Shown: positions 12,840 through 64,000 of the stretch, one piece after another | Layout: each line of letters begins with the position of its first letter | Position numbering within the stretch: the first letter of the stretch is position 1 | NCBI GenBank assembly: GCA_963707025.1 | Contig: CAVPOM010000018.1 | Location: 416,001 to 480,000, forward strand | Source: an uncultured Verrucomicrobiae bacterium | Lineage (GTDB): Bacteria; Verrucomicrobiota; Verrucomicrobiia; Limisphaerales; Palsa-1400 | DNA length: 64,000 nt | Direction: 5' to 3' | Translations under genes and position numbers: made by a program | Notes under the pieces: generated by a model | Database searches by the model: none | What the model was told of the DNA's origin: nothing | Seen by the model: only the letters and a program-made list of their open reading frames with translations

Positions 12840-12840
12840 G

Positions 12841-13631: not shown

Positions 13632-13695
13632 CTGTTAGGAAATTGTTCTGCCAACCATCTTCCCCAATCCTGTTTCCCCCGGGACCTCGCAAGCA

Positions 13696-15297
13696 TCAGG
13701 GGAAGTCTCCCCGCCTGAACGCTTCGATAATTCCATCAGCCGTCCTCGTAGCCAGCGCGGAGATGGTCAACGCGGGGTTTGCCGCACCCCCGGTCACCCA
13801 AACACTGCCGTCCCCTATGAACAGATTGGGCACGTCATGCGTGCGGCACCACGGATCCACAACCGATGTCCTTGGGTCCTTGCCCATTCTGCAGGTGCCG
13901 AGGTAGTGCGAGGAAGCCCCGGCAATGATTTCGCCCACGGTTATGTTGCGCGCCCCGGCGGCTTCGAGTATCTCGCGGAGTTTGGACGAAATCGCGCCGA
14001 TCATGGCCAGGTCATTCGCGCCGTGGGTGTTGACAATCTGCGGCACGGGCAATCCATAAATATCTTTTACAACTGGATCGAGCCTGACCTGATTGCGCTC
14101 GTCCGGCAATTGTTCCCCGTCGGTAGCAAGGCCCACCATGTGTCCGAAGCGTTCCTTGACCTGCGCCTTGTGTTCAGCCCCCCAACCGGGGATGGAACGT
14201 GCCGTGGCCAGAGGCCATTGCGGCTCATTCTCCACGGAAATAGTCCATCCGCGCGCGAAACCGTTCCTGGAATTGGTTTCATAGAAATCCTGCATGATGC
14301 CGCCCGTCGGGACCCCGCGCCAGGAATCCAGGCGCTCGGAGAAGATCCCATGCGAAAACACCGACAAGTGTTCCATAAAGTATTTGCCTGCCAGTCCACT
14401 GGAATTGGCCAGCCCATCAGGAAATAAGCGCGAGGTGCTTAATAGCAGAAGGCGAGTGGTCTCGACCGCATTACCCGCCACCACAATCACGCGTCCAAAA
14501 ACCTCCTTTTCGTGCCCTTCCGCGTCAAAGTAGATCACGCTGCGCGCTCTGTCCTTGAGCCCAACCGTGATTCTCCGGGCCATGCATTCGGTGCGGATGG
14601 ATACCCGGCCAGTCCGTTCCGCCTTGGGAATGTAAGTGACATCAATGCTTGATTTCGCCGAGATTTTGCAGCCCAGGCTGCAGGTCCCGGCGCCGTTGCA
14701 GGCCGGTCGGCCGTTCCAATCCTTGGTGGGGATGGCCAGCGGTTCTCGCACCAGGTGCAATCCCAACCTTTCCGCACCGCGTCTCACCGCGCCGCTGGCC
14801 AGGTTGAATCCGTGTGGCGGAGTAGGGTACGGTCGCGAACGGGGCGGATCGAAGGGGTTGGCGTCGGCGCCATCCGGCCCCGAAACACCCAGCTCGTACT
14901 CGACTTTTGTATAGTAAGGTTCCAGATCGGCGTAGCTGATCGGCCAATCGTCCGCCACTCCGTCCTGGCTTCGCACTCGAAAGTCGGATTCATGGAGCCT
15001 GGGCGTCATGGCGTGGTAGCACAGCGTTGAACCACCGACCCCCTTGACGCGATGATAGGAGAACCGGTTTTTGCCGCCGGAGGTGTATTGATCCCGGCGT
15101 GGATCTTTGGGCGCAAAAACGTCAGCCGCGCGAACCTCAAAATCAATGGCACTTGTGTGGTAGTCGTTATAAGGATCGTAGCGCCTTCCGGCTTCCAGTA
15201 CAATGACTTCCAGTCCTGCTTCCCCCAACTGCTTGGCCATGACCCCGCCTCCGGCGCCTGAGCCGATCACTATGACATCTGCGCTGTCCTTTGTCAT
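13696..15297 (-). CDS. GMC family flavoprotein oxidoreductase (gluconate/glucoside dehydrogenase large-subunit type)
   Basis: GSGAGG Rossmann motif, GVGGST, Cys cluster CNGAGTCSLGC, HYLGTCRMG, ANPALTI. No signal peptide. Confidence 0.9.
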   Translation of the reverse strand: MTKDSADVIVIGSGAGGGVMAKQLGEAGLEVIVLEAGRRYDPYNDYHTSAIDFEVRAADVFAPKDPRRDQYTSGGKNRFSYHRVKGVGGSTLCYHAMTPRLHESDFRVRSQDGVADDWPISYADLEPYYTKVEYELGVSGPDGADANPFDPPRSRPYPTPPHGFNLASGAVRRGAERLGLHLVREPLAIPTKDWNGRPACNGAGTCSLGCKISAKSSIDVTYIPKAERTGRVSIRTECMARRITVGLKDRARSVIYFDAEGHEKEVFGRVIVVAGNAVETTRLLLLSTSRLFPDGLANSSGLAGKYFMEHLSVFSHGIFSERLDSWRGVPTGGIMQDFYETNSRNGFARGWTISVENEPQWPLATARSIPGWGAEHKAQVKERFGHMVGLATDGEQLPDERNQVRLDPVVKDIYGLPVPQIVNTHGANDLAMIGAISSKLREILEAAGARNITVGEIIAGASSHYLGTCRMGKDPRTSVVDPWCRTHDVPNLFIGDGSVWVTGGAANPALTISALATRTADGIIEAFRRGDFP

Positions 15298-21256: not shown

Positions 21257-22619
21257 TCAGAGCGCACATGGCCGTGCTCCGCCGGCCTTGGCAAGCAGCC
21301 CGGCATTTTCCAGTTGATCCGCCGCGGCCGACAGCGCTGCCAACGGAAGGCCGGATCGGGTCGCGATATCGAGCAGCGAATGCCCGCCGTCCGAAAAATT
21401 TAGCACCCACAACATCGCCTCTTCGGCGCCGGCGTTTTTTGTTCCGCCAACCGGGTGATAAAGTCCCCGCCGGCCCAGTTGGGGCTCGCATTTCGGATTC
21501 AAGTTCACGTAGCTCTCGTTCTCCTCCAGTGCGGTGATGATCTGCAGTATTTGTTGCAGCGATTCGGCCATGCTCGAAGGTTTGACCAGACTCAAGTTAT
21601 CCGCCGAAGTGTGATATTGCGGATATCCGCCATTGGGTGTGCGCATGAAACATCCCACCGGCAGGTTGATGCCGGGCGAACAGTACCTGGCGCTCATCGT
21701 ATCCATGAGGAGTGAAGTCCAGCAACTGAAATTCCCGGCCCGACTGCTGCAAGACATGCTCAACCACCCGGTCAATCTCGGCGTTTCCCCGGCGGCTGCG
21801 CTTGTAAGTGAAACGTCCCGGATCACCGACGCAGGAGAGGACCAGGCCGTGCTTGATATTGGGGAGGTGCGCCTCATTCAACGCCAGCCAAGTAATCGAG
21901 CCAATCGTTCCCGGTATCCACACAAACCGGTAGGAATAGCGCAACGGCCGGCCGGACAGATGTTGCGCCAGCCTGGCCGCGACCGCCATCCCGGACAGAT
22001 TGTCGTTGCAAAGCGAGGGATGGCAGCAATGCGACGAGATCAGAACCTCGGCATCCGTCGCGCCTTGAATGCGCAACTCGCCATAGGTCAGGTGGCCGGG
22101 TTCCAGTGTGGAATTGATGCAAACCTCGTACTCGGCATCGGCCAGGCTTTCCAACTGGCGATGGCTCAGGCAGAATCCCCAAGTCTCCTTGTAATATGAC
22201 GTGCGATAAGGGATCCAGTCCGGCGATCCGGACAACGTAAACAAGTGCGGCCGCAACTCTGAGAGGCCCACCTTCTTCCGCACCGGAACGCTGTAGTTAA
22301 CGACATGCAGATTGGACTTGCGGAAATCCACCACTTTCCCGCCTCCTGCATTCTTGATATAGGCATCACGAATGTTCCATTCCTTCGGCACCACCCAATC
22401 GAAAACCTTGGTTCCGCTCGGGACTTCGTGGAGGGACAACGGTGCCTGCTGCTGAAGCAACCGCAGGCTTGCGCGCAGCCCGTTTCCGGTAATGCTGCGG
22501 CAGATCGGATAAAGTTCCGACACGATGCGGTATAGTTCCGCGCCTTCCCGGGCGGCATCCCACTCACGGGATGCGCCGGCGGGCCGCTGGCCGCCAGTGT
22601 CAAGCATATCAACCATCAA
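21257..22619 (-). CDS. DUF4910 aminopeptidase-like protein (frameshift near 21686)
   Basis: YPICRSITGNG, HCCHPSLCNDNLSG; DERQ joins YCSPGINLPVG...YHTSADNL...PKCEPQLGRRGLY after removing one G. Confidence 0.88.
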
Positions 22620-34973: not shown

Positions 34974-35929
34974 TGCTTTGCGGCTTGGGTTCGGACTTTC
35001 GCAGCCACACCAGAAACAAAAAGAAGGGGATCAGCGAGAGCGCGAAAAAGACCGGCCCGCCATGGTGGTGAATCCACGAGTTTATCCAGTCGTGGTTGAG
35101 TTGAACGCACAGTTCACCGATGACGAAGATACGAAAGCCGTTTCTGACGATGGCCAGAGGAATGATGAACAACGCCAGGAAGGCGCGCCGCCAGGGTGAA
35201 CGCAAGAAGAGGTTCCCTGCCAGAAGACTAGTAATGAGCAGGACTTGGGTGGAGTGGATCCCGCTGCACTCCGGCGCCACCCCTCAGACTGAAATCAGTC
35301 GGCAGATTCAGTATCAGCCCGTTTTGGCCGCAGTGCGTCCCAGCCAGGCTGAAAAAGCCGTGAGCGGCAGCGGCAGAACTATGTTGGAAGAAGTTTTCCA
35401 TCCCCGCATTCACACGCTCCGGATAAGGAACCATGAAAAGCAGCAGCGCCAGCGGGAAGGCGATGGCCGACATCGTGGCGGCGCCCAGAGAGGCAAAACC
35501 CACCGCCAGCAGCAGCAGTAAAAACGACAGCATCATCACGCACAGATAATCCGCTTCTGCTGGAAACCAGCCCTGTTGGCGGGCCCGAAAATAAAGCGCG
35601 AGGATGGCGCCTCCCGCCGCCGCCGCCGCCGCCGCCGCTCCCCAGCTCGGGCGGACCTCCGCGCCCAACCCGGCGCGCCTGAGCCAGATGAGATAGCCTG
35701 TGATCAGGGGCATGAGCGGCATGTAGGAGTAGAACTCGCTGTCCATGGCGAATCCCATCCAATCGCACAGCGGAACGATGAAACAAAGTGCCAGAACGGC
35801 CGTCAGCGCCGCCAGCACCGCCAGCTTTCTCCACCCAGGCGGCCCCGTTCCCCGCAGAAGGCCGGGCGCGGGCGCGGGAGAGGTTTTCTGCGTATCACCC
35901 GCCAAAACAACATCGCCGGAATTCTCCAT
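34948..35929 (-). CDS. Exosortase/archaeosortase family transpeptidase (frameshift in G run at 35280-35283)
   Basis: Multi-TM N-part in 35228..36010. Catalytic motifs VAPECSG (Cys), NGFRI (Arg) and HHHGG (His) in 34948..35280; removing one G joins FSLR to VAPECSG. Confidence 0.88.
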
Positions 35930-46113: not shown

Positions 46114-46554
46114 TCACACGACCTTCCGGGCAAAACTCAGCTTGCCCCGGGCCACCACAGTATCCTCCACACGGGCGACTCCTTCGACCAAGGCCGCATT
46201 CTCCACCATTTTCAGGACATTGATTTCCATGGTCATGGTATGACCGGGCAACACGGGGGCCAGGAATCTCATGTCGTTGACGGCGGCCAGCGCCATGAAT
46301 TCCCCCGGCTTCATGCCTTTGCCCGTCGTCTGGCTGAAGAGGATGGAAGCGCTTTGCCCAATGGCTTCAATGATGAAAGTTCCGGGCATGATGGCGAACT
46401 CTGGGAAGTGGCCCAGGAATTGAATCTCACTGCCCGTCACGTTTTTGAGGGTCTTGATGCGTTTGCCCGGTTCCAATTCCAAGACCCGGTCCACCATGAT
46501 CAGCGGGAAGCGCTGCTTCAAGTGGTCTTTCAGTTCCGCAAAGGTCATCACCAT
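46114..46554 (-). CDS. FabZ-like 3-hydroxyacyl-ACP dehydratase
   Basis: QRFPLIMVDRV, KNVT, GHFP...MPGTFIIEAIGQ (His/Glu dyad). Confidence 0.88.
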   Translation of the reverse strand: MVMTFAELKDHLKQRFPLIMVDRVLELEPGKRIKTLKNVTGSEIQFLGHFPEFAIMPGTFIIEAIGQSASILFSQTTGKGMKPGEFMALAAVNDMRFLAPVLPGHTMTMEINVLKMVENAALVEGVARVEDTVVARGKLSFARKVV

Positions 46555-46586
46555 AATGAAGGGTTGGGCAATTCGGATGGCCCGGC

Positions 46587-47489
46587 TCAACGCCGGCGCA
46601 GGATCATGGCCAGGGCGCGGGGGAGAAAACGGCCGCCCGGAACCGGGTTGCCCGCATCACAGACCAGCCGCGTCACACGAAGGCCGACTTCCTCGGCCAT
46701 CTGGAGCGCCTCACTTTCGCGATGATACTCGTAAGTATGATCGCGTTGGGCTGATTCCAGCGCGGTGCTGAAAAAGACCAGGCCGTCGTCGGCGAGATGA
46801 TGGGCGATGACTTTAAACAACAGGCGCGGATCTTGCAGATGCTCTGCCAGCATGGCGGCAATGATGCCTTGATACGTCTTACCCGGACCCATCAGGTTCA
46901 AATTGAGCGCGTCCTTAACCTCGAAGTTCACGCGCTGCCCAAACCCGGTCACGGCCAGCAGCCGCTTTGAGACAGCCACCGCCGGCGGACTGATGTCAAA
47001 ACCGTCCAGATGAATGTCGGGCCTTTCCTTGGCTGCCAGCAGGCCCATGACTCCATGGCCGGAGGCCAGTTCGAGGACTTTCGCGCCCTTCGGCACCCCT
47101 TTGATGAATTCGTCCCGGTATAAGGCGATGTGGCTGATCATCGAAGGCCAGAATGGATAAATTAAAATGGCGGCCCACATGTAGGGAACCATGTAGCCTT
47201 CTGACTCATAGACATTGGAAATGACATCCGGCATTGCTTGAGGTTCGTAGCGCCCGGTTTTCTCGTACTGTTGCTGGCACTTCCAGACGCCCAGGCAGTA
47301 CTTGGCGTAGCCCTCGGCGGCGTCGTCAAAGGCGCGTTCGCCGTAGGCCGCGCCAGCCCAGAGGGCCAGGGGATCCAACAACCAGGAACAGAGGCCCGCA
47401 TTGGCCTCATAGGTGGCCCGCACGGCGGGAGCAAATATCCTGGCCTTTTTCTCCAAACTTCTTAGAAACGAATTGGCGTCGGTCACCAT
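46587..47489 (-). CDS. Class I SAM-dependent methyltransferase
   Basis: VLELASGHG, GFDIS, LAEHLQDP motifs. Confidence 0.8.
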   Translation of the reverse strand: MVTDANSFLRSLEKKARIFAPAVRATYEANAGLCSWLLDPLALWAGAAYGERAFDDAAEGYAKYCLGVWKCQQQYEKTGRYEPQAMPDVISNVYESEGYMVPYMWAAILIYPFWPSMISHIALYRDEFIKGVPKGAKVLELASGHGVMGLLAAKERPDIHLDGFDISPPAVAVSKRLLAVTGFGQRVNFEVKDALNLNLMGPGKTYQGIIAAMLAEHLQDPRLLFKVIAHHLADDGLVFFSTALESAQRDHTYEYHRESEALQMAEEVGLRVTRLVCDAGNPVPGGRFLPRALAMILRRR

Positions 47490-47512
47490 TTGAATTTTCC
47501 TCGTTAGTGTGT

Positions 47513-48778
47513 TTAGTGTGTTCCATCGGCCGAGCGAACATGACGCACCATGCGGACCATGGGCCGGACCAGATCCACCCCGTCCCACGGAGGGACAAAA
47601 GCATGCATGCGTCCCAGCTTGACGATCCGATCCACGCCTCTTCTGGCGGCCAGTCCGGCCAGTTTGCCCTCTTTCTCCGGATCCGCCATGCCCAAACCCA
47701 GCGTCTGCATGACCCCATCAAACTTTGAAGCCGCCTCAATTAAACTGTCCACCTCCAGAACCGTCAACGTTTTCCCTTGCGTGGGTTGGGGCAGGTCCGA
47801 TCCCGCGCCGAAGAGCAGCGTCCAATCCGGCCCCATCGGAAAGACGGCCCGATGCGCGGTGTCCTGCAACAGCCAGGCCGTGCGGGCCTGGCAAATGGCT
47901 GAGGTCAATCCGGATGCAATGGTTTGCCGCGGATGCGCCTTGTTTTCGGCTTCAAAGGCGCGCCTCAGGACTGACAGAAATTGAGCCGTCGGCAGGCCCG
48001 CCTCATTTTCGAGGAACAGAACCTGGGGCGACGAACAGGCCTGCTGGTCAAATTGCCAGACATCCCGCGCCAGCCGCACGCACCAAGTCTCCTGGACCTC
48101 AGGGTTGTTCCAAGTGCCCGCGTCCATCGCGGCGACGGACATTCTGGGACCGAAGACCGCGATTCTCGCCCAATGAGGAAAAGGCAGTGCCCGCACGCTC
48201 AAAACAGACTCTTTTCCGCCCCAAATCATCGCGCCGTCCACCGATTGAGCCATCGTTTCATGCAAATCCTGCCGGCCATGCTCGAATGCCGCCATAAAAA
48301 TGCGGGAGGTTAGCGATTGCCCCGGGTCGCTTTGCGCCAGCTTTCCCATCACCCGCCGCGTCACCTCGGTCAAACCTTCCGGGACGCGGACCATAGCGGC
48401 ATTGCCCCCCAACAGAGCGCACGTCATGGACAGAAGCGGCTGGATTTCCACATTGCCGGCAGGCCAGTGGCCCACCACGCCGACGGGGTAGGCCTTGCAC
48501 TGGGCGCGGCCATATTCAGTCCACCCGCCATGCAACGCGTTGGCTCCAAGTTCGCGCGCAATAATCGGTTCCAAATTCCCCCGCTTCAGCCACATCCGAA
48601 GGAAAAGTATTCCGGGAATATCGTCCATTTCGCGTGCGTCCAGGCTCCCGGCCCAAGCATCGAAAACGGTCATCACATCGTCGGGCGGGATTTCCCGCTC
48701 CACAACCCGTTGGCGCAGTTGGACCGCCGCGCAGGAAATCTCGGCGGGGGCCTGAACATCATGGATCAGATTTGTCAT
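47513..48778 (-). CDS. LuxC-like acyl-CoA/acyl-protein reductase
   Basis: HWPAGNV, WGG, FGPRMS, FDQQACSSPQ (catalytic Cys), GVDRIVKLG...PWDG. Confidence 0.88.
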   Translation of the reverse strand: MTNLIHDVQAPAEISCAAVQLRQRVVEREIPPDDVMTVFDAWAGSLDAREMDDIPGILFLRMWLKRGNLEPIIARELGANALHGGWTEYGRAQCKAYPVGVVGHWPAGNVEIQPLLSMTCALLGGNAAMVRVPEGLTEVTRRVMGKLAQSDPGQSLTSRIFMAAFEHGRQDLHETMAQSVDGAMIWGGKESVLSVRALPFPHWARIAVFGPRMSVAAMDAGTWNNPEVQETWCVRLARDVWQFDQQACSSPQVLFLENEAGLPTAQFLSVLRRAFEAENKAHPRQTIASGLTSAICQARTAWLLQDTAHRAVFPMGPDWTLLFGAGSDLPQPTQGKTLTVLEVDSLIEAASKFDGVMQTLGLGMADPEKEGKLAGLAARRGVDRIVKLGRMHAFVPPWDGVDLVRPMVRMVRHVRSADGTH

Positions 48779-48793
48779 CGAAAAACCCGCCGT

Positions 48794-49918
48794 TCAACTT
48801 ACGGGATCTCGTTTGCTTTGCAGATTTCCGCAGCCCCGCACCTCCGCCTTGGGAATGCGTCCGGCAAAGCGGAAACTGATGCCCCGTCTCCCGCAAGGGC
48901 AACAATCATAAGCGACCACTTTGGCTAAGTCCTCCGTGAGCAGCAAATGGCCGGGGAAGCTGGTGGGCAAAACACTGCAAACCTGAACGATGCCGTGTTC
49001 TCCCGCGGCAACGGGCTGCAGCGTCAATGGATTCCTGACAATCACCTCGCCAAAGGCCGGGCTGTGTTTGTTCCCCTCGGGACAATCCGGAAAAATAACC
49101 CCCACGCTCTCCACCATGCCATAGAAATCAATGACGCATTCCGGCGAACACCCAAAGACCCGGGCCAAGCCCTCGTTGAAAGCTGCTTTTTCCACGGCTT
49201 GTTCCTGCAAACGTTTCCAGCCGCCGCTGTGCAGGATGCGGACCTTGGGCAAATTCAAACACGCGCCATCGGCCAGGAGCGGCTTGACCAGGTGGTTCCA
49301 CAGAATATAGGTGAAGCCATAAACCAGCAACTCGGCATCCTGCCGGTCCCGGGCGAATTCTCTCAGTTTGTCCCGATCCAAAATCAGTTCATCCTGGTCA
49401 TTTAGGCCAAGACAATAGGTGGCCTCGCTGGCAAAAGGCTGCAACCCCTGAATCGCCGCCCCCCTGGCCCCAAGTTCGTTCCCGTCTCCCCTGTAGCCTG
49501 GCACGTCCACCACCAAATACGGCCGGCGGGCCGGTCCAATGTAATCTCGCACAATGGTCACAATTCCCTTGGTCATCCGTCGCGAGGTTGGCCCATCAAT
49601 CGCCACACGGCTGGGCGATTGAGAGGTTGTCGCGCTCGAGGTCAGGGTTCTCTTAATCTCGCCCGGACCCACCAGGGACAGCGGAGGATTGGCTTTAAGA
49701 ACCCCCACAGGCAAAAAAGGAAGGGAAGCCACGTCACCTGCGGCGCTATAGTCCGATGGCCAGCCCCGCACATAATTTTCATAACCCGCGTGGCGCTGGC
49801 AGGCGTAATGCAACTCATCCTTGAGCAATTCCAACAGCCCCGCCTGTTTCTCCCCGGGAGGCTGGCTATAGGGAGGAATGGACAGCAAGCGGCTTATTTT
49901 ATCATCCAATGATTGCAT
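48794..49918 (-). CDS. LuxE-like acyl-protein synthetase
   Basis: LPFLPV..LK, SSATT, HSGGWKRL, DFYGMVE, SFPGHLLLTEDL, C-terminal EVRGC acyl-accepting Cys. Confidence 0.9.
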   Translation of the reverse strand: MQSLDDKISRLLSIPPYSQPPGEKQAGLLELLKDELHYACQRHAGYENYVRGWPSDYSAAGDVASLPFLPVGVLKANPPLSLVGPGEIKRTLTSSATTSQSPSRVAIDGPTSRRMTKGIVTIVRDYIGPARRPYLVVDVPGYRGDGNELGARGAAIQGLQPFASEATYCLGLNDQDELILDRDKLREFARDRQDAELLVYGFTYILWNHLVKPLLADGACLNLPKVRILHSGGWKRLQEQAVEKAAFNEGLARVFGCSPECVIDFYGMVESVGVIFPDCPEGNKHSPAFGEVIVRNPLTLQPVAAGEHGIVQVCSVLPTSFPGHLLLTEDLAKVVAYDCCPCGRRGISFRFAGRIPKAEVRGCGNLQSKRDPVS

Positions 49919-51392
49919 GGAGGCTTTTGCCCTGAACGGGGAGCGAGATGCGCGCTATCTTCCCGGTGGAGGTCTTCGGCAATTCAGAAACCAAATGAAT
50001 GGAGTCCAAAGCCCAATGGGCCGGAAGATGGCGGCGAACCTCTTCCACCCCAAGGTTCGCTCCCGGCTCGGGCACGATAAACAACACCAGCGCCTCTCCC
50101 GCTTCCGGATGCTCCACCGCGCGGGCGGCGCATTCATAGACCCCTGGCATGGAGGCCACGGTTTCCTCAGCTTCCGTAAAACTCACCCGCATCCCTCGCA
50201 TTTTCAGAAAGGACCCTTGCCGTCCTTCGATCCACAGATACCCTTCCTCATCCTGCCGGGCCAGATCCCCGGTGCGCAGCCAGCCGTCCCCGAAGACCCG
50301 TTCCGTTTCCACCGGGTTGTTCCAATAACCCGAGGAGATGGACGGTCCCTTGGCCCACAGTTGGCCGGTTTGCCCTGTGCGCAAATCATTTCCCTGCTCA
50401 TCCATGATCCGCACCGTCAGGTTGTCCAGCGGGCGGCCCACGCTGCCGGGTTTCTCTTCCCACCGTTCCGGTTCCAGGCACGATATGCGGGCCGTCGCTT
50501 CAGTTTGTCCGTACATCACGTAAAACTTCGTCATGGGCAATGCCGCCCGCATCTCATTCACTTTCTCCGGCGCCAGGCGGCCCCCGGCCTGGAGAAAACG
50601 CCGCAAGGAAGGCATGGCGATCCCCCGAAAATTGGAACGTCGCAGCAGCACATTATAAACCGTCGGCACCCCGGCAAAGGTGGTGCAGCCATGCTCGGCC
50701 ACCGCTCGCAGCACTTTGTCTGGAAACATAAAGCGGCGGTCAAAGACCACGCCACCTCCCGCATATAGATGCGTATGCAGCACACTCGTCCCAAAACAGT
50801 AGCTCAACGGGAGAATCAGCATGGCCCTGTCGTCGCCCGCCAATTGTTGGCTGCGGATGATGGCTTCGGTATTGGCGATCAGGTTCCCGTGGCTGACCAT
50901 GACGAAACGAGGAACGCCGGTGGATCCGGACGTGGCCATCAACGCCGCCAGATCCGAGTCATGGACTGCCGCCGCCGGCATCTTGTCTGACCTGTCCCCG
51001 GCCAAGTCCCCGCGCAGCATGAGGATCGAGCCTTGGTCAATCCCCCCGTCCCGGAGACCTGTTTCGGTCCACACGGCTTTGGCCCCGCTTGCCTCCAGCA
51101 GCGTCCCCAGCGACGTTGTCACCGCGCGCTCTTCCACCGGCACCGCCACCAGGCCGGCGTAGATGGCTCCCAGATAGACCAGGGCGCTGGCAGGAGACAA
51201 AGAACAGCCGATCAACACCCGGTCTCCTTTTCTCAAACCAGCCGAAACCAAGGAAAGGCCATGCGCCGCGATCAACCGCGGCAAATCTTCCGGGTCAATC
51301 GCGCGGCCGGTGGCCGCATCAATCAGCCAGGAACACGGCCCAAGGCGCTGCACCAGGCGCCCGGCAAAATTTACTTCTGCCGCCGCTGTCAC
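49902..51392 (-). CDS. AMP-forming acyl-CoA/acyl-ACP ligase
   Basis: TSGSTGVP, MYGQTEA, LRTGD, PKTSTGK adenylation motifs; GTG start immediately after the ACP stop. Confidence 0.9.
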   Translation of the reverse strand: MTAAAEVNFAGRLVQRLGPCSWLIDAATGRAIDPEDLPRLIAAHGLSLVSAGLRKGDRVLIGCSLSPASALVYLGAIYAGLVAVPVEERAVTTSLGTLLEASGAKAVWTETGLRDGGIDQGSILMLRGDLAGDRSDKMPAAAVHDSDLAALMATSGSTGVPRFVMVSHGNLIANTEAIIRSQQLAGDDRAMLILPLSYCFGTSVLHTHLYAGGGVVFDRRFMFPDKVLRAVAEHGCTTFAGVPTVYNVLLRRSNFRGIAMPSLRRFLQAGGRLAPEKVNEMRAALPMTKFYVMYGQTEATARISCLEPERWEEKPGSVGRPLDNLTVRIMDEQGNDLRTGQTGQLWAKGPSISSGYWNNPVETERVFGDGWLRTGDLARQDEEGYLWIEGRQGSFLKMRGMRVSFTEAEETVASMPGVYECAARAVEHPEAGEALVLFIVPEPGANLGVEEVRRHLPAHWALDSIHLVSELPKTSTGKIARISLPVQGKSLHAIIG

Positions 51393-51393
51393 C

Positions 51394-51648
51394 TTAGGCT
51401 CCCTTGGCCAGCTTTGCCTGGATGATGCGCACGATCTCGCGAACATTCTCCATTTCAATCATCTCATCCACATCCAGGTTGATTTTGAACTCCGTCTCCA
51501 GATTGCTGGCCAAAGACAAATGACCCACAGAATCCCAACCCGGGATATCGCGTGCGGCAGTCTCCATGGATACTTTTTGTGGTTCGATGTCAAAGGAAGC
51601 TTTGAAGACTTCCCGGACTTTGTTTAAAATGCCGTCTGTATCGTTCAT
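51394..51648 (-). CDS. Acyl carrier protein
   Basis: 84 aa acidic protein with GWDSVGH phosphopantetheine site. Confidence 0.9.
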   Translation of the reverse strand: MNDTDGILNKVREVFKASFDIEPQKVSMETAARDIPGWDSVGHLSLASNLETEFKINLDVDEMIEMENVREIVRIIQAKLAKGA

Positions 51649-51677
51649 TTAATGTGTTTATCTTTCGTAAGTTGTTC

Positions 51678-52451
51678 TCATACCATTATCCCCGTGCCCC
51701 CGTCTATAACAAGAGTTTGCCCGATGATCCCCGACGCCGCATCGGAGAAAAGGAATTGCGCCCCATACGCAACCTCCTCGGCTGTCACCAGACGCCCCGC
51801 CGGAGTCCGGCGGATGGCCTCGGCAATTCGGTTTTCGGCATCCGGCAACGCCTTCCAGACATCCGTCAGCACCGCCCCGGCCGTGATAATGTTGACACGA
51901 ATGCCGCGCGGGGCCAGTTCGACGGCCAGATGGCGGGCCAGGGCCTCCAGCGCGCCCTTGGACGAACCAACTGCGCCATAGCCCGGCTGGAAGCGCAAGG
52001 CTCCCCAGGAACTGACCGCCACGACGCTTGATCCCTTGGAAAAGCGCGCCAGCAGCAGCTTGATCACCTTGAAAAAGGCGCCGACATTCAGGCTAAAAGT
52101 AAAGTCGAAATGCCGCCAGTCAAGTTCCTCCACGGAGCGATGAACCCCGGTCGCGGCACAATGGACCAATCCGGAAAGTTGCGGACCCACCTCCGCAACC
52201 GAGCGGTCCAACTGTTCCAAACCCCGGTCGTTCGTCAGATCCGCCCGGCACAAGCGGATGCCCAAACCTTCTTCCGTGGCGATCGCCTTCAATTCCTCTG
52301 CCGCCTTTTGGTTGCGCACAAAGTTCGCGATGACGGTGGCTCCGGCCCGCGCAAAACGAAGTGAAATGGCGCGACCAATGCCGCGCGTGCCCCCGGTCAC
52401 CAAAATCGTCCGGCCGGACAAGGAAAATAAATTATTCGGACTTATGCCCAT
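51678..52451 (-). CDS. SDR, FabL-like enoyl-ACP reductase
   Basis: TGGTRGIG, CAATGV, YGAVGSSK (Yx6K spacing of enoyl reductases), GQTLVIDGG. Confidence 0.8.
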   Translation of the reverse strand: MGISPNNLFSLSGRTILVTGGTRGIGRAISLRFARAGATVIANFVRNQKAAEELKAIATEEGLGIRLCRADLTNDRGLEQLDRSVAEVGPQLSGLVHCAATGVHRSVEELDWRHFDFTFSLNVGAFFKVIKLLLARFSKGSSVVAVSSWGALRFQPGYGAVGSSKGALEALARHLAVELAPRGIRVNIITAGAVLTDVWKALPDAENRIAEAIRRTPAGRLVTAEEVAYGAQFLFSDAASGIIGQTLVIDGGTGIMV

Positions 52452-52840
52452 AACGGCTCAAATATACCTGTTCTTCCAGCCAACCATCGGACTGCAACGG
52501 TCACGCACTTCAACCAGAATCTTGCGAACGATGGGCCGCAAGGACGGCGGAGGCGGCGCCGTCGTTTTGAAGTCAACGCCATTTTTCCGCGAACAGGCCA
52601 CCACCAGATTCTCCGCTTGCTTGACAGGAAAAGAGCCGCACACGCCGTTGCTGGCGAGCTGGGACGCGCTTCGCTGCTCGTGGCCGCAAAGAAAAGTCAG
52701 ATCTTCGCCCTCCTCCCCCGGCCCGAGCCAGGGGCGGTGGTGTATCCAGAGTTCTTCCACACCGTCGGCAATGGAGGGATGAATCCGGTGTGAGCAGGGG
52801 CGGATATGGAGGGCCCGCCCCCGCCGAAGTTTCTTTTAAT

Positions 52841-52858
52841 TGGCACGCATGATGCCAG
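52841..52858 (-). promoter_or_regulatory. Putative sigma-54 promoter for the FabL-to-PrsT gene run
   Basis: Minus strand CTGGCATCATGCGTGCCA has GG-N10-GC spacing. It is near-palindromic (TGGCA-N7-TGCCA) and about 390 nt from the fabL-like ATG. Confidence 0.45.
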
Positions 52859-53068
52859 TTTGGCATCGCTGCTGCTGCGAGAAATGACAAAACCGAGTTC
52901 AAATCGCTCACACCAATTCTCTTATACAAACCACTCAAAATCAGCCACTTCCAACAAGGACAGTCTCTCCAAACCGGATGACGGTGACAGGCAGGAGAGG
53001 TTGCCGGGCTGAAAAGTCCAACTGTTAATCTGGGGGGAACGTCCCCAAGGCATTAAGACATCATTTGC

Positions 53069-53488
53069 TCAAGTTCCCAGGAGTATTTGGGTCAGGGGAC
53101 CGATCCGGACAAGTTTGGAGGCGCCCCAGTCTGCAAAGGTCGCTTTAAGGTTAGAATCCCATTGATCCCTGACCGGCCCCCCGCTGGTGATGATTTTTTG
53201 GTGGTTTCCTTTCTTGAACTGATCCCAAGCCTCCCGCAATTTGGTGGCCGGGATCAAGCCTTCCACCACCAGGTAGTCCCCGCCCACGCGGCTGTTGACG
53301 GCCGGAAGCCGTAAACACCACGCTGGAGGCCCAGCAGCAGGGCGAGGGTCAGCAGCCTGCCGCGCCAGGCTAAAAGCCAGGCTTCCTTGCGAACAAAGAG
53401 GCCGGAAAGCGCCGTCGGACACCTTTGTGGAGAATTCACGCCAGAAATCCTTAATGAACCGGAGGGCATCCAGCACTGCGTTCATCAT
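53069..53488 (-). pseudogene. Frameshifted, truncated YdcF/ElyC-like remnant
   Basis: GLFVRKEAWLLAWRGRLL in one frame and AVNSRVGGDYLVVEGLIP...IITSGGP in another match the N-half of 54887..55615; the C-half is absent. Confidence 0.65.
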
Positions 53489-54886: not shown

Positions 54887-55615
54887 TCAGGAAGCCGCCG
54901 GACGAAAGAAAAAACGGGCATAAAGGTAGGCGATGCTCTCGCCGACCACATTCCGCACCCCTTCGCTGGTGCGCCACCAGTGGCGCGGATCATATTCGTG
55001 ACTGTCCATGGCAATAATGCCAATCTTTACCCCGGCCCCGAACGCTTTTTCGTACATCAACCGGGAGCGCCGCGCATGCGGCCCCTCTGTCGCAACATCC
55101 AAAAACTTTACCTCCATCCCTTGTTCCCTGGCCCACTGTTTCACCACCAAGGCCGAATGGTAAGTGCGGTCTTTGCTGGCCACATTGGGGAAGAGCGTCG
55201 AGAGTTTCTCCTGGGGCACGCCGTCCTGGACCAACAGTCGGCTCACAAAATCACCGGAATAGCGGCCCGACTCATATCGGTCCCCCTCCTCCAGCACCGG
55301 TCGAATCAGAACGGCACGCTGATAGCCGCCGTGCAAAAACTCCGAGGCAGCCTGCTTCATCGTATTGGGTGGAGACCAACCCTCAATCACCAGCAACTTT
55401 GCCGGAACTCGATCTGTGAGAGCTAAAAACGAATGCACGCCGAACCGTAGCGTAACTAGGATCACAAGCCCAAGGGCCAACACCAGCAGCCAACCGGCCC
55501 GGGACAACGTCCAGCATTCCCGGCGGCGCAGCAAGCCACCGAAGGCCGATGGCCGTTTTTGGCGTGGACGTTCCATCGGCGGATTCAAAGCGAAACCTCT
55601 CTTTCCATCCATCAC
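54887..55615 (-). CDS. YdcF/ElyC (DUF218) family envelope protein
   Basis: Single N-terminal TM, LVIEGW, DRTYHSA, TEGPHARRSR, ESIAY. Confidence 0.75.
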   Translation of the reverse strand: MMDGKRGFALNPPMERPRQKRPSAFGGLLRRRECWTLSRAGWLLVLALGLVILVTLRFGVHSFLALTDRVPAKLLVIEGWSPPNTMKQAASEFLHGGYQRAVLIRPVLEEGDRYESGRYSGDFVSRLLVQDGVPQEKLSTLFPNVASKDRTYHSALVVKQWAREQGMEVKFLDVATEGPHARRSRLMYEKAFGAGVKIGIIAMDSHEYDPRHWWRTSEGVRNVVGESIAYLYARFFFRPAAS

Positions 55616-57254: not shown

Positions 57255-59042
57255 TCAGATGGCTTCATGCTGCGGTCGCTTACCGAAGCGTCCCGCCAAC
57301 GGGGCAAAACGATCTCGACCTTCGCAAAGCAATCGTCGTGCAAAAGCCCAGACGTTGAGATGGGGAATTTTGACCAAGTTCTGAGCAATGGCTTCTGGAT
57401 GAATAAAGGCAATTTCGACGCTGCTGCCAGGCTCCACGGGCAAGGATTCCCCCGCGTAACTTTCGATGAACTTCATTTCGCCTCCTGGAACGCCCAGACG
57501 CATGCCTTCGTTGCGTCCGTTCGTGGAATGGGGACGCAACACCGAGATGGAATGACATTCCGGCGGAACAGCCACATGAAGGAGCCTGGAGTAGGCCCGC
57601 ACGCGAAAAAGGCCGCCCTGCTTCTGCGTTTGGTAATTGTGCCGACTGATGGCGCTCATGCGCATCCATTGCGCGTTCCCCAGCGCATTGATGGAAGCGG
57701 CTACCTCCTCCAGAATGCCCAAGCCTTCGGCCACATCTTCATGGTGGCCATAAGGAATAATGGGCCGGTGCAGATACGCGGCCAAATGAATCGCGGCGTC
57801 ATACTGCTTGCTCTTGAAGCGGAAGCGGGGCAGAACGGGCAAACCGGCGACAACGTCGGAAACTCGTAGTCCCAGGCCATGGGACCATGGCTTGTTCGCA
57901 TTTGTTTCCAGCAGGCAGGGCACGGCGGTGGACACGGCGTCAAATCCAAGCCTGGCCAAGGCCTCAAGGACCTCCTCGCCGCAGACACCATGAGGCGGGG
58001 CCATCACCCGGCAAATTTCAAGCCGCCCAGCTTTTTCTGCGCGGCCAATCCGTTGCAGCGCCTGGACGAGAGACGCGATCGCTTTTTCCTGGGAGCCAAA
58101 GGAGGCCAGTTCGGAGTGCAGATGGTCATTGCCATGCATCATCAGTGAGAGCTGCCCGGAATTATGGCTGAAAACCTCCGCCGTCCGCCTCCGCACCAGC
58201 CACGCATCCAAAGGCACCGTGGCAAAAGCAACATGGTAGGGCGAGGACCGCGCGCTGGCCGCCAAGCGCCTGAAATCCAGCCACCCGTATCGCCCGGCGT
58301 GCAAATTCGGATCGTCGAACTGAAAGCAGGCCCTTGGCCCTGAAGAGAGCCATTGCTCCTCGCCGGTGAGTTGTCGCAGAAAGTCTATCAAGGGAAGCAT
58401 GGCGATGAAATTGCCAGAATGAAAATAACGGTAGAGGCAGCCCTCGCTCTTGACCTCCGGCAACGGCATCGCGCTCACGTCGTGTCGAAGAACGCCATTT
58501 GCACGGCGGACCCACAACGGTTTGTCTCCCAATCGCGCCATAATCACGTCCCCTTCCCTCAAGCCGGGCGGCGCGCCTTGGCGAACATCCTCTTGATAAA
58601 ACCGGTGCGCGCGAAATGCTTTCGGAACCTCCGCGCTTTGGCCGAATTGGATTTCAGCAGATGGAAAAGAAAGGTCGCCGGAAGCAGCGCAGGGCAGATG
58701 CAGTGAAGGCAGCTCCAGCGCGCTTTCCTCCAGAATCCCGCCCCAGGCGATCACCGCGTCCAGGCCCTTCATTTCGTGGGCGTTGCGGCGTTCGAAACGG
58801 ACGGGCAAAAGTTCTTCCAGCCAAGCCCAGAGCGGACCGCCACAAGCTCGGTCGGGGCCTGCCAAGCCCACAATTCTATTGGAATCAGTCAAAGGAATCA
58901 CGCCAGTCAAAGTATCGGGGGCAACTGGCTCAGATTGCGAAGGCCTCTTCGGGCCGCCAGACTCATCCTTCAAGAAAACCTGCCAGACAACGGAACGGCG
59001 TCGGCGCCCTTCCTTCAGAAACCAGGTCCGCCAAAGCTCCAA
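57255..59042 (-). CDS. Hypothetical protein with polysaccharide-deacetylase-like domain
   Basis: FQFDDP, MHGNDH, APPHG and YGHH resemble CE4/NodB-type metal motifs; start uncertain. Confidence 0.55.
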   Translation of the reverse strand: MELWRTWFLKEGRRRRSVVWQVFLKDESGGPKRPSQSEPVAPDTLTGVIPLTDSNRIVGLAGPDRACGGPLWAWLEELLPVRFERRNAHEMKGLDAVIAWGGILEESALELPSLHLPCAASGDLSFPSAEIQFGQSAEVPKAFRAHRFYQEDVRQGAPPGLREGDVIMARLGDKPLWVRRANGVLRHDVSAMPLPEVKSEGCLYRYFHSGNFIAMLPLIDFLRQLTGEEQWLSSGPRACFQFDDPNLHAGRYGWLDFRRLAASARSSPYHVAFATVPLDAWLVRRRTAEVFSHNSGQLSLMMHGNDHLHSELASFGSQEKAIASLVQALQRIGRAEKAGRLEICRVMAPPHGVCGEEVLEALARLGFDAVSTAVPCLLETNANKPWSHGLGLRVSDVVAGLPVLPRFRFKSKQYDAAIHLAAYLHRPIIPYGHHEDVAEGLGILEEVAASINALGNAQWMRMSAISRHNYQTQKQGGLFRVRAYSRLLHVAVPPECHSISVLRPHSTNGRNEGMRLGVPGGEMKFIESYAGESLPVEPGSSVEIAFIHPEAIAQNLVKIPHLNVWAFARRLLCEGRDRFAPLAGRFGKRPQHEAI

Positions 59043-62027: not shown

Positions 62028-63038
62028 TCAACGGTTTGCTGTCGGGGCGGATTGTCCCCCCTTTTGGCTTCCCGAGGCTTGGATGAGCGATTGGAGACGC
62101 TTGCCCACGTCACGCGTGAACGCTTCCGCTCCAATCGCATTGAGGTGTTGCGAATTGTAGAAAAGGTCGCGGTTTTTGGAAAACTCCGACTCGCTATAGT
62201 CCCAAAACGGGACATGATAACGGTCAGCGATTTCGCGGAATTTGGCAAAGATCTCCGCGCGATTGGTGACCATGTTGAGCATTTTGCAATATTGCGGCGA
62301 ATAAACCAAGACAATGCCGATGTCTTTGCTTTGGCAGGTCTGGATCAACTCTTCCAAGACCCGCACGCCGTTGCTGGAGACGTCGAATCCGACGCCATCC
62401 GGATGCATTGCCTTGAAGAGATCAAAGTCGCTATTCCATGCTTTGTTCATCGGACAAAAGCCGTCGAAATCGTCTTCGCGAGGGTTCAGACCGGTGAGGC
62501 CCCGCAGGCCAGAGAGCCAGCCTAAATTCACGTCCTCAACCACATAACCGTAGAGCGGAATGTATTTCCATTTCCACACCCTGGGATTGATTTGGAGCAG
62601 GGCTTGGTAGAGTGGGCGTTCGCTTAAATAGGGCACGTACTGGAAAGGCGCAAAGATTTCATCTCGCGGCGTGAGAGCGAAACTATGCACATCCAGGTTT
62701 TCCACGACCAGTTCCGGTTTGGCGTTGTGACGCAGATAAGCCTGGAGCACGGCCAGTTGAACGTCAGTATGCGAGGCGTTGCGAGCCAAGTTGAACGCGG
62801 TTTTGCCGGTCATGGCGCCGATGATCCTGGGATCGTAACCGCGGAAGGCCCGGGAGGAGCCACCGATGATCACCTGGGCGTTGACGCGGCCGGTCATGGC
62901 GCGGTTGAAAGCGCCGCCATCGCCAGTTTTCACGCGCTTTAGACCGGCGCCGATCAGCAGGTGAAGCCCGATGGCCAGTAAGCCGGCGAGGCCGAAGAAC
63001 AAGACAAGCCGCCGCACATCTCGAGGAAACGCTTTCAA
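62028..63038 (-). CDS. SGNH-like (AlgJ/DltD-type) periplasmic partner of the MBOAT
   Basis: N-terminal TM, IGGSSRA, FYNSQHLN..GA; overlaps the MBOAT stop. Confidence 0.75.
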   Translation of the reverse strand: MKAFPRDVRRLVLFFGLAGLLAIGLHLLIGAGLKRVKTGDGGAFNRAMTGRVNAQVIIGGSSRAFRGYDPRIIGAMTGKTAFNLARNASHTDVQLAVLQAYLRHNAKPELVVENLDVHSFALTPRDEIFAPFQYVPYLSERPLYQALLQINPRVWKWKYIPLYGYVVEDVNLGWLSGLRGLTGLNPREDDFDGFCPMNKAWNSDFDLFKAMHPDGVGFDVSSNGVRVLEELIQTCQSKDIGIVLVYSPQYCKMLNMVTNRAEIFAKFREIADRYHVPFWDYSESEFSKNRDLFYNSQHLNAIGAEAFTRDVGKRLQSLIQASGSQKGGQSAPTANR

Positions 63039-64000
63039 AATTGGAAGTAGATAAACTGTGTCTGTCGGAAAACGCCAAATAAAATGACAAGAAAGACCGC
63101 TGCAAAATAGCCCGCCCAGCGTGGAATCAGCGGCAGGCGCAAGAGAGGGTCGGTGAAGGATGTTGTGCGCGCAATCAACTGGCCCACCTCGAGGAGCAGG
63201 ATGCTCATCACCGCCACCGGCATTTGGCGCAGGTAGAACTGCACCGTGGCAACGTGGTGGATGTCCCAGTTGCGAAAGAAATGGGTCAGAACGTAAGCGG
63301 CGTCACCAAGATTACGGGCGCGAAATACGGCACAACCGGCACAAACGAGAAAAAACGTGGTGACCATGCTGATTCCGGCGCGCCAAGAGCTCTCCACGCC
63401 CAGACCGATGGATCCAAAGAAACGGTCGCGCAAACCCTTGCCCGCCCTGCCGGCAAGAAGGTAAAATCCGTTGAGCAAGCCCCACACCACGTAAGTCCAA
63501 TTGGCCCCATGCCACAGGCCGCAGATGCCAAAAGTGACCAGGATGGTAAAGACCCAGCGCTTCATTGCCACGCGTTTGCCAACCATAGGATAGTAAACGT
63601 AATCGCGGAACCAGGTGGAAAGGGAAATGTGCCAGCGCTGCCAGAATTCCGAGATCGAGCGGGAAAAATACGGATTGTCGAAATTCTCCATGAGCCGGAA
63701 CCCCAGGACGCGCGCCGCTCCAATGGCGATGTCCGAATAGCCGGAAAAATCGCAATAGATTTGGTAGGCAAAAAAGAAGGTGGCGATGGAAAGCTGCAAT
63801 CCGTTGCAGGCGGCGGGAGCGGCATAGACGTCGTTGACGTAAAGGGCCAGGCGATCGGCCACGACCAGCTTCTTGAAGAATCCCCACGCCATGCGTTTGA
63901 GGCCCGAGACCACGCGGTCATAGTCGAAGGGGTGGTCCTCGTAGAACTGGTGGAGCAGGTGTTGGGGTCGTTCGATCGGCCCGGCCACCAACTGCGGGAA
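63035..64000 (-). CDS. MBOAT family O-acyltransferase (AlgI/DltB type), 5' end outside window
   Basis: FPQLVAGPIER, GFFKKLVVAD, YCDFSGYSD, FWQRWHISLS, GLWHGANW, FIYFQF. Confidence 0.93.
   Translation of the reverse strand, partial: FPQLVAGPIERPQHLLHQFYEDHPFDYDRVVSGLKRMAWGFFKKLVVADRLALYVNDVYAAPAACNGLQLSIATFFFAYQIYCDFSGYSDIAIGAARVLGFRLMENFDNPYFSRSISEFWQRWHISLSTWFRDYVYYPMVGKRVAMKRWVFTILVTFGICGLWHGANWTYVVWGLLNGFYLLAGRAGKGLRDRFFGSIGLGVESSWRAGISMVTTFFLVCAGCAVFRARNLGDAAYVLTHFFRNWDIHHVATVQFYLRQMPVAVMSILLLEVGQLIARTTSFTDPLLRLPLIPRWAGYFAAVFLVILFGVFRQTQFIYFQF

What the first reader, a model, noticed from the sequence alone, without database searches (positions are those of the whole stretch)
46114..52451. 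Luciferase-free LuxC/LuxE acyl-reduction cassette with its own ACP, dehydratase, enoyl reductase and methyltransferase, heading the exosortase gene run
Seen: fabL-like, ACP, AMP ligase, luxE-like, luxC-like, methyltransferase and fabZ-like genes with gaps of 32 nt or less or overlaps. Catalytic Cys motifs are intact; there is no luxA/B/D, ketosynthase or ketoreductase in the window. Co-oriented genes continue through the sugar genes to the beta-barrel, exosortase and prsT. Known: LuxE/LuxC reduce fatty acids to aldehydes; acyl-CoA ligases and ACPs are recognised companions of exosortase A loci; to my knowledge the exosortase acceptor is not established, whereas archaeosortase substrates are lipidated. 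Inference: a discrete assembly line loads an acid on ACP, dehydrates, reduces and methylates it, then releases an aldehyde or alcohol. The product could be a glycan substituent, an ether/acetal lipid or the anchor for VPDSG proteins. This is the best candidate for an undescribed system in the window.
Basis: partly seen in the sequence, partly recalled or inferred. Interest (0 to 1): 0.85.

Follow-up and report, generated by a model that had tools for sequence, protein, structure and literature searches.

The report
Portable acyl-tailoring cassette for surface sugars

Summary
The seven genes are real, tightly packed and keep their catalytic residues. Six of them (ACP, ligase, luxE, luxC, methyltransferase, fabZ) keep this order in 65 of 67 related loci with room to show it; the FabL-like gene joins in 47 of 67. 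The exosortase link fails. Exosortase occurs in 59 of 60 relatives, this LuxC type in 1 of 60. Of 50 cassette genomes, 4 have an exosortase within 25 kb and 11 have none detected. An acyltransferase directly flanks the cassette in 44 of 67 loci. Distant methyltransferase homologues sit beside FkbH in 8 of 10 sampled genomes, against 47 of 401 genomes carrying FkbH at all. Best reading (0.6): a variant of the V. cholerae tetronate / flagellin-island ACP-ligase-LuxE-LuxC module that likely makes a short O-methylated acyl-ACP for the polysaccharide. The exact acid is unknown. The scan noted this cassette twice before on other DNA. New variant of a known kind; interest 0.5.

The parts
51678..52451 (-). 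FabL-type SDR (likely enoyl-ACP reductase); optional member
   Evidence: Best NCBIfam FabL 207 bits, cut-off 328; best PDB hit FabL 3oic E 1e-45, next 4e-29; Y-x6-K motif and no YxxxK; in order in 47 of 67 loci
51394..51648 (-). Dedicated acyl carrier protein, GWDS40VGH
   Evidence: PP-binding above cut-off; WDS motif in 76 of 78 motif hits across the loci
49902..51392 (-). AMP-forming acid:ACP ligase (GTG start at 51392)
   Evidence: AMP-binding E 3e-64; groups 99/97 with ligases of four other Lux-type cassettes in a 15-row tree
48794..49918 (-). LuxE-like acyl-protein synthetase
   Evidence: PF04443 E 3.5e-50; K235, R354 and C363 align with K238, R355 and C364 of P. phosphoreum LuxE; RGCGN-type motif in the 76 long homologues counted
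47513..48778 (-). LuxC-like acyl reductase
   Evidence: PF05893 E 6e-50; C248 aligns with the catalytic Cys of 7xc6; FDQQAC(S/T)SP in 78 of 79
46587..47489 (-). Class I SAM methyltransferase of an ACP/FkbH-associated family (likely O-methylates an ACP-bound hydroxyacyl group)
   Evidence: Model pLDDT 96; SAM fold with no close solved relative; distant homologues beside FkbH in 8 of 10 genomes and 2 of 2 plasmids
46114..46554 (-). Non-housekeeping FabZ-like dehydratase (ATG start at 46554)
   Evidence: H49/E63 intact; Ser at the tunnel Gly position in 65 of 65 counted; best PDB hits are anammox FabZ; a separate housekeeping-like FabZ is on contig C7
52467..52856 (-). C-terminal remnant (about 130 aa) of a protein that directly precedes the SDR in L043 and L048; possible scar of the donor locus
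   Evidence: tblastn E 3e-10; gene order
63035..64000 (-). MBOAT acyltransferase (runs off the window) followed by an SGNH-like gene at 62028-63038; one candidate outlet for the acyl group, a second pair lies just beyond the window
   Evidence: role inferred
35005..35800 (-). Exosortase, split over two frames in this assembly; neighbour, not part of the cassette

Best explanation
The seven genes are a conserved, patchily distributed cassette without a ketosynthase that likely builds one short acyl group on its own carrier protein and likely hands it to an acyltransferase that decorates the surface polysaccharide encoded around it. Shown: gene content, order, intact active sites, neighbours, independence from exosortase. 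Inferred steps: (1) The substrate is a small polar acid with two carboxyls, probably a C4 hydroxy-dicarboxylate such as malate, because the cassette has two acid-activating enzymes. (2) LuxE adenylates one carboxyl and passes it through Cys363 to LuxC Cys248, which reduces it with NADPH to an aldehyde; an alcohol probably follows, but no dedicated carbonyl reductase is encoded. (3) The ligase loads the other carboxyl on ACP Ser40; steps 2 and 3 may run in either order. (4) The methyltransferase O-methylates a hydroxyl of the ACP-bound group. (5) FabZ removes or adds water at C2-C3, and FabL, where present, saturates the double bond. (6) An acyltransferase moves the group to a sugar: LbH or GNAT in most relatives, here more likely an MBOAT/SGNH pair or the LbH/GNAT genes upstream in the locus. 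My single best guess for the product is a methoxy-C4 acyl such as 4-methoxybutyryl (residue 100.05 Da) or, without FabL, 4-methoxycrotonyl (98.04 Da); I give that exact structure about 0.2.
For: Order kept in 65 of 67 loci across Acidobacteria, Verrucomicrobiota, Syntrophobacteraceae and others. Acyltransferase as immediate neighbour in 44 of 67 (35 LbH, 8 GNAT, 1 MBOAT; labels from one representative per cluster). Glycan genes within 10 kb in 39 of 62 loci of 15 kb or more (38, plus L019). Methyltransferase family beside FkbH in 8 of 10 sampled genomes, beside a PDH-like E1/E2 pair plus ACP in one more, ACP detected in 7 of 10; all 10 genomes carry FkbH against 47 of 401 in the same sample. 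FkbH making glyceryl-ACP is recalled. One LuxC-methyltransferase fusion, P0122. Ligase in one clade with ligases of ACP-FabG-ligase-LuxE-LuxC cassettes, one of which sits in a Deinococcus EPS locus with a NeuD-type acyltransferase. A same-family genome has a different Lux cassette with the same LbH family in the equivalent locus (G027). LuxC cleft entry is polar: Gln113 and Ser249 stand where P. phosphoreum has Ser166 and Phe297 (Ser/Thr249 in 79 of 79). FabZ lacks the two basic residues that bind housekeeping ACP (Leu98, Val117). Precedent: the V. cholerae O1 ligase WbeL is needed for O antigen carrying 2,4-dihydroxybutyryl (PMC3441752, PMC12208996; passages). The Aeromonas island with ACP/FabG/ligase/luxE/luxC goes with an unknown 102 Da moiety (PMC7874193; passages), which equals a dihydroxybutyryl residue, 102.03 Da (my match, not the paper's).
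Against: No acyltransferase touches the cassette in this window; orthologues of the usual partners were not found in the genome beyond weak LbH hits at 26-48% over short stretches. 23 of 67 loci have no labelled acyltransferase next door, and 23 of 62 show no glycan gene within 10 kb (only 68 of their unlabelled proteins were scanned). 8 of 62 lie near NRPS/PKS genes. No aldehyde-to-alcohol enzyme is in the cassette. The fold search cannot tell O- from C- or N-methylation. No substrate evidence from the ligase pocket: best solved relatives are generic. The LuxC residue mapping rests on a low-identity pairwise alignment. The 10 FkbH-linked genomes may be kin. Two loci have an alpha/beta hydrolase inserted between luxE and luxC (L057, L081), which could mean hydrolytic release.
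Confidence: 0.6

Rival explanations
1. Same acyl-ACP chemistry, but the acceptor is not the polysaccharide: a small molecule, lipid or protein.
For: 8 of 62 loci lie near NRPS/PKS genes; L056 has a PPTase next door, L026 a T-TE gene, L050 a FAAL-PKS with MMPL; 23 of 62 loci show no glycan gene within 10 kb.
Against: In this genome the cassette lies inside a long polysaccharide locus, and the nearest homologues sit among flippase and glycosyltransferase genes.
Confidence: 0.15
2. A fatty aldehyde or alcohol line: an acyl chain is tailored on ACP, then LuxE/LuxC release an aldehyde or alcohol that becomes an ether, acetal or wax lipid.
For: LuxC accepts acyl-LuxE or acyl-CoA and yields aldehyde (PMC9157457, passages); FabZ and FabL are fatty-acid enzymes; hydrolase inserted in 2 of 80 loci.
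Against: No thioesterase or LuxD, so LuxE would lack a free acid; no ketosynthase in the window; polar LuxC cleft entry and a LuxC about 56 residues shorter than 7xc6; acyltransferases flank 44 of 67 loci.
Confidence: 0.12
3. The cassette arrived by horizontal transfer without its transferase and is idle in this genome.
For: Gene remnants directly upstream; no LbH or GNAT neighbour; absent from 59 of 60 relatives; the ligase pairs with an acidobacterial one at 100/100 in a small tree.
Against: All seven frames are intact with conserved active sites in an assembly that shows splits in other genes; GC3 0.60-0.76 is like the neighbours; MBOAT, LbH and GNAT genes are in the same locus.
Confidence: 0.1
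4. The cassette makes the lipid anchor that exosortase attaches to VPDSG-CTERM proteins.
For: Same strand and locus as exosortase, PrsT and a VPDSG protein. Exosortases lie within 70 kb in 9 of 50 cassette genomes. The acceptor is treated as open in PMC12188702 (passages).
Against: Exosortase in 59 of 60 relatives, this LuxC type in 1 of 60. None detected in 11 of 50 cassette genomes, more than 70 kb away in 7, on another contig in 23. Two more full-length exosortases lie on other contigs here, and the local one is split. Shared residence in large EPS loci explains the nearness.
Confidence: 0.03

Closest known systems
Vibrio cholerae O1 tetronate module wbeK-O / rfbK-O (VC0248-VC0252)
   Same: ACP plus AMP ligase in a glycan locus, making a short reduced acyl (2,4-dihydroxybutyryl) for the O antigen (PMC3441752, PMC12208996, passages). 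That RfbN is a LuxE/LuxC homologue, RfbM an alcohol dehydrogenase, RfbO an acyltransferase and malate the proposed start is recalled from Morona 1995, of which I saw only the reference line.
   Different: Here LuxE and LuxC are separate, there is no alcohol dehydrogenase, and a methyltransferase, FabZ and a FabL-type reductase are added. The V. cholerae proteins were not compared directly.
ACP / FabG / AMP ligase / LuxE / LuxC set of Aeromonas group II and enterobacterial flagellin glycosylation islands
   Same: Four shared gene types in glycan loci, no luciferase (PMC7874193, PMC4875605, passages). Sets of this layout fetched here (Deinococcus, Ponticoccus, G027) share the ligase clade; LuxE 33-38% and LuxC 24-26% identical for those compared.
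   Different: Their SDR is FabG-type (YxxxK), ours FabL-type (Y-x6-K). They lack this methyltransferase family; FabZ was seen in one enterobacterial strain only. The papers suggest a 'liposugar' and report no product.
Lux fatty acid reductase LuxCDE (PDB 7xc6)
   Same: LuxE and LuxC catalytic residues conserved.
   Different: No LuxD or LuxAB; scores far below NCBIfam cut-offs (60 of 750, 51 of 550); polar cleft entry; own ACP and ligase.
FkbH-ACP-methyltransferase(-MBOAT) sets, e.g. Tistrella pTM1 and Paroceanicella pD4M1C
   Same: Same methyltransferase family (about 25% identity) next to an ACP and often an MBOAT. O-methylated short acyls on glycans exist, e.g. di-O-methylglyceroyl on C. 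jejuni flagellin (PMC3068675, passages).
   Different: The acyl-ACP comes from FkbH, not ligase + LuxE/LuxC; none of the 12 loci had LuxE/LuxC hits. Whether the Campylobacter enzyme belongs to this family was not tested.
Anammox amxFabZ (PDB 8ayd, 8ayc)
   Same: Best structural relative of the FabZ; both lack canonical ACP-binding basic residues and the tunnel Gly.
   Different: amxFabZ has Ile there and sits with FabF genes; ours has Ser and no ketosynthase. No ladderane link is implied.

Membership tests
Lux fatty acid reductase (LuxCDE) | LuxC catalytic Cys; LuxE Lys/Arg pair and C-terminal Cys | tested here: met
Lux fatty acid reductase (LuxCDE) | LuxD thioesterase and LuxAB luciferase in the operon | tested here: not met
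   None in the window; no PF02273 in the genome; luciferase-like domains only in long frames on contig C12
Lux fatty acid reductase (LuxCDE) | NCBIfam equivalog cut-offs NF052251 and NF052244 | tested here: not met
   60.1 of 750 and 50.9 of 550 bits
Lux fatty acid reductase (LuxCDE) | Hydrophobic cleft for a long-chain acyl group | tested here: inconclusive
   Polar residues at two entry positions, from a low-identity alignment; no LuxC model was built
Tetronate-type / flagellin-island acyl module | ACP + AMP ligase + LuxE + LuxC together in a glycan locus | tested here: met
Tetronate-type / flagellin-island acyl module | Ligase of the same clade as other Lux-cassette ligases | tested here: met
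   99/97 support with four such ligases in a 15-row tree; WbeL itself was not in the tree
Tetronate-type / flagellin-island acyl module | Carbonyl reductase (FabG-type SDR or alcohol dehydrogenase) | tested here: not met
   SDR has Y-x6-K and no YxxxK; best hit FabL
Tetronate-type / flagellin-island acyl module | Acyltransferase adjoining the cassette | tested here: inconclusive
   Absent next to the window's cassette, present elsewhere in the locus; adjacent in 44 of 67 relatives
Tetronate-type / flagellin-island acyl module | Product is a short hydroxyacyl on a sugar | not testable with these tools
   Needs chemistry
Exosortase-A-associated acyl-CoA ligase (TIGR03098) | Score above 592.35 bits | tested here: not met
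   260.2 bits
Exosortase system component | Co-distribution with exosortase | tested here: not met
   59 of 60 against 1 of 60 relatives; 4 of 50 within 25 kb
FabL enoyl-ACP reductase | Y-x6-K motif and FabL as nearest solved relative | tested here: met
   below the equivalog cut-off (207 of 328)
FabZ dehydratase | His/Glu dyad; family score | tested here: met
   H49/E63; NF000582 123 of 113, but TIGR01750 125 of 155
O-methyltransferase acting on acyl-ACP | Methylation of oxygen on an ACP-bound substrate | tested here: inconclusive
   Context supports ACP-bound substrates; fold does not fix the atom

The most novel reading that the evidence does not exclude
This is a plug-in, ketosynthase-free tailoring line that turns a central-metabolism dicarboxylate into a methyl-ether C4 acyl group on ACP. 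It can be wired to LbH, GNAT or MBOAT transferases or to NRPS modules. Its methyltransferase defines an uncharacterised family dedicated to short ACP-bound hydroxyacyl groups. The same logic would identify the unknown 102 Da moiety of Aeromonas flagellin glycan as dihydroxybutyryl and recast 'fatty acid' Lux genes in glycan loci as dicarboxylate half-reductases.
Probability: 0.3. Interest if true: 0.72.

Novelty: new variant of a known kind. Interest (0 to 1): 0.5.

Why it matters
LuxE/LuxC pairs without luciferase occur in many glycan loci and are usually annotated as fatty-acid or bioluminescence genes; the tetronate route is still called putative in the papers read. This cassette is seven soluble proteins, so the question of what such pairs reduce can be tested in vitro. 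It predicts an O-methylated glycan substituent in soil Acidobacteria and Verrucomicrobiota and points to an ACP-linked methyltransferase family. It does not shed light on the exosortase acceptor.

Tried and rejected
Exosortase anchor: rejected on distribution. A first tally by tblastn with the window's split exosortase found 0 of 80 loci and a cluster tally 3 of 80; a profile search gave 4 of 80. Because the window's own distance is 11.5 kb, the 10-kb test was replaced by a genome-level test on 50 of the 80 loci, chosen for long contigs. Own promoter: 3 sigma-70-like sites against 3.6 expected, 25 terminator-like sites against 18.8 +/- 3.8; uninformative. Expression: no RNA holder listed. Exosortase split: the listed contigs of run X1 did not cover the break, so error or pseudogene stays open. 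Methyltransferase fold search: generic SAM fold, top Z 18.4, no close relative; the ESM Atlas gave only unnamed methyltransferase clusters. Names and accessions of the distant methyltransferase representatives could not be obtained, so a link to the C. jejuni flagellin locus is untested. Cispentacin AmcE-type cyclising decarboxylase: 96 of 140 bits and no ketosynthase, rejected. Ladderane link: rejected (see closest known). No complex prediction was run: LuxE-LuxC is a textbook pair and enzyme-carrier jobs rarely decide. Literature: searches listed no paper on an ACP-ligase-LuxE-LuxC-methyltransferase-FabZ set; the library lacks most subscription papers and no supplements were read.


Full report
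Observation. The seven ORFs are present on the minus strand with gaps of 29, 1, -17, 15, 23 and 32 nt. Pfam and NCBIfam assign them as SDR (best FabL), ACP, AMP ligase, LuxE, LuxC, class I methyltransferase and FabZ. Against the solved LuxC-LuxE complex, LuxC Cys248 and LuxE Lys235, Arg354 and Cys363 match the catalytic residues named in PMC9157457 (passages and section 7). No ketosynthase, LuxD or luciferase was hit among 53 window ORFs; LuxD was not found in the genome (88% complete) and the two luciferase-like domains are in long frames on another contig.

Setting. The cassette lies inside a long co-oriented polysaccharide locus. Upstream, beyond the window, are a NusG-family gene, a sugar transferase, a Wzz-like protein, glycosyltransferases, an O-antigen-ligase-family gene, two MBOAT/SGNH-like pairs, and LbH and GNAT genes. 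Downstream are nucleotide-sugar genes, the exosortase, PrsT/K/R, a VPDSG protein, ABC export genes and more glycosyltransferases. So it does not head the exosortase run; luxC is 11.5 kb from it. The organism is probably Verrucomicrobiota: the VPDSG tag and an 88% identical LuxC from a Verrucomicrobiota record point that way.

Conservation. A scan with LuxC confirmed 123 relatives and kept the best 80, at 60-88% identity, mostly Acidobacteria, with Verrucomicrobiota, Syntrophobacteraceae and others. Of 67 loci with room on both sides, 65 have ACP-ligase-luxE-luxC-methyltransferase-fabZ in order and 47 also have the SDR in front. The cassette is rare: cassette-type LuxC in 1 of 60 relatives, no full-length methyltransferase in 400 other genomes of the phylum (8 matched the SAM domain only), and no LuxC at E 1e-60 in 300 other genomes of an acidobacterial carrier's phylum. 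High identity across phyla with patchy presence suggests horizontal spread (inference).

Exosortase test. Exosortase is in 59 of 60 relatives. In 50 of the 80 cassette genomes, picked for long contigs, the nearest exosortase was within 25 kb in 4, 25-70 kb in 5, further in 7, on another contig in 23, and not detected in 11 (these are incomplete assemblies). The ligase is not a member of the exosortase-A ligase family (260 of 592 bits). The local exosortase is split over two frames while two full-length ones lie on other contigs. One loophole: a distant luxE/luxC-like pair, 22-29% identical, occurs in 53 of the other 59 relatives and in this genome; nothing seen links it to exosortase, but I did not test that.

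What travels with it. An acyltransferase is the immediate neighbour in 44 of 67 loci: 35 LbH, 8 GNAT, 1 MBOAT. Labels come from one representative per cluster, and one LbH representative is under the Pfam cut-off though it hits LbH families at E 9e-13. A fourth-family candidate (4 loci, no Pfam hit) was left out of the count. Glycan genes lie within 10 kb in 39 of 62 loci of 15 kb or more; NRPS/PKS genes in 8 of 62. Genome G027, of the same family, has a different cassette (ACP, FabG, ligase, LuxE-LuxC fusion, the same LbH family) in the equivalent locus, so Lux-type cassettes behave as exchangeable modules of these loci.

The methyltransferase. It folds with high confidence as a SAM enzyme with a helical N-terminal part and no close solved relative. 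Its distant homologues are informative. In a 401-genome sample centred on an alphaproteobacterial carrier, 10 other genomes have a full-length homologue. Eight of the 10 have FkbH within 6 kb, one has PDH-like E1/E2 genes plus an ACP, and one, on a 7.5-kb contig, shows neither; an ACP was detected in 7. All 10 genomes carry FkbH, against 47 of 401 in the sample (kin are not independent). Both plasmid hits sit beside FkbH and an ACP. Three of these 12 loci have an MBOAT. FkbH and PDH-like systems load glyceryl and glycolyl groups on ACP (recalled), so this family likely O-methylates short ACP-bound hydroxyacyl groups (inference).

Substrate hints. The ligase groups at 99/97 with ligases of four other Lux-type cassettes (15 rows). 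LuxC has Gln113 and Ser249 where the long-chain enzyme has Ser166 and Phe297 at the cleft entry. FabZ has Ser at the tunnel glycine position in 65 of 65 counted and lacks two basic ACP-binding residues, like amxFabZ. The SDR has the enoyl-reductase Y-x6-K motif, while cassettes lacking this FabZ/methyltransferase set carry YxxxK enzymes. These are weak hints for a short polar substrate and a private ACP.

Mechanism. Two acid-activating enzymes and no thioesterase fit a dicarboxylate: one end reduced by LuxE/LuxC, the other tethered to ACP, then methylated, dehydrated or hydrated, optionally reduced, and transferred. The precedent is V. cholerae O1, where the ligase WbeL is needed for an O antigen acylated with 2,4-dihydroxybutyrate (PMC3441752, PMC12208996; passages); the Lux homology of RfbN and the malate start are recalled. 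In Aeromonas, islands with ACP/FabG/ligase/luxE/luxC go with an unknown 102 Da moiety (PMC7874193; passages); a dihydroxybutyryl residue weighs 102.03 Da. That match is mine and rests on nominal mass. Open points: no enzyme for aldehyde to alcohol, the order of steps, the acid, and which transferase serves this window, where none adjoins the cassette.

Prior knowledge and verdict. The five-gene relative is in print without a product (PMC7874193, PMC4875605; passages). Seven searches listed no paper on the methyltransferase + FabZ version. The scan noted the same cassette in two other genomes with a similar reading, seen after I had stated mine; I do not count it as support. Verdict: real, conserved, a new variant of a known kind; glycan acyl tailoring 0.6, exosortase anchor 0.03; interest 0.5.

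Noticed in passing
window 35005-35800 (-): Exosortase split over two frames; the DUF4910 gene (21257-22619) and an RmlD-like gene (38489 upward) also look split, so assembly indels are plausible. Reads did not cover the exosortase break.
   Followed up: partly
G000:C4:469252-471777: A second, stand-alone luxE-like/luxC-like pair without ACP; a distant LuxC of this kind is in 53 of 59 other relatives, so it looks like a lineage-wide gene pair of unknown role.
   Followed up: partly
L104:2507-7823 (G027:C188): Different Lux cassette (ACP, FabG, ligase, 790-aa LuxE-LuxC fusion, LbH) in the equivalent EPS-exosortase locus of a same-family genome.
   Followed up: partly
window 52467-53415 (-): Remnants of two genes upstream of the SDR: the C-terminus of a protein whose full-length homologue is at 57255-59042, and a frame-split fragment similar to the G027 counterpart of 54887-55615.
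   Followed up: partly
window 21257-22619 (-): DUF4910/DUF2172 gene; the family recurs in 10 of 80 cassette loci. That it is the family of C. jejuni Cj1295, needed for di-O-methylglyceroyl pseudaminic acid (PMC3068675, passages), is recalled, not tested.
   Followed up: no
P0122: 594-aa protein joining the C-terminal part of LuxC to the methyltransferase; single case, could be a miscall.
   Followed up: no
L110 (Rhizobium plasmid NZ_CP140876.1): Transketolase halves, LpxA-like LbH, ligase, luxE, luxC, SDR, GMC oxidoreductase, fabZ and an unrelated methyltransferase next to siderophore uptake genes.
   Followed up: no
L114:1-4428 (G643:C294): PDH-like E1/E2, this methyltransferase family, ACP and a further gene in one run; could make methoxyacetyl-ACP (inference).
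   Followed up: no
L063:1190-4330: Second AMP ligase and a sodium:dicarboxylate symporter about 3 kb upstream of the cassette in one locus; weak hint for a dicarboxylate.
   Followed up: no
window 9724-15297 (-): ETF alpha/beta, a CCG-domain Fe-S protein and a GMC oxidoreductase inside the glycan locus; already noted by the scan.
   Followed up: no
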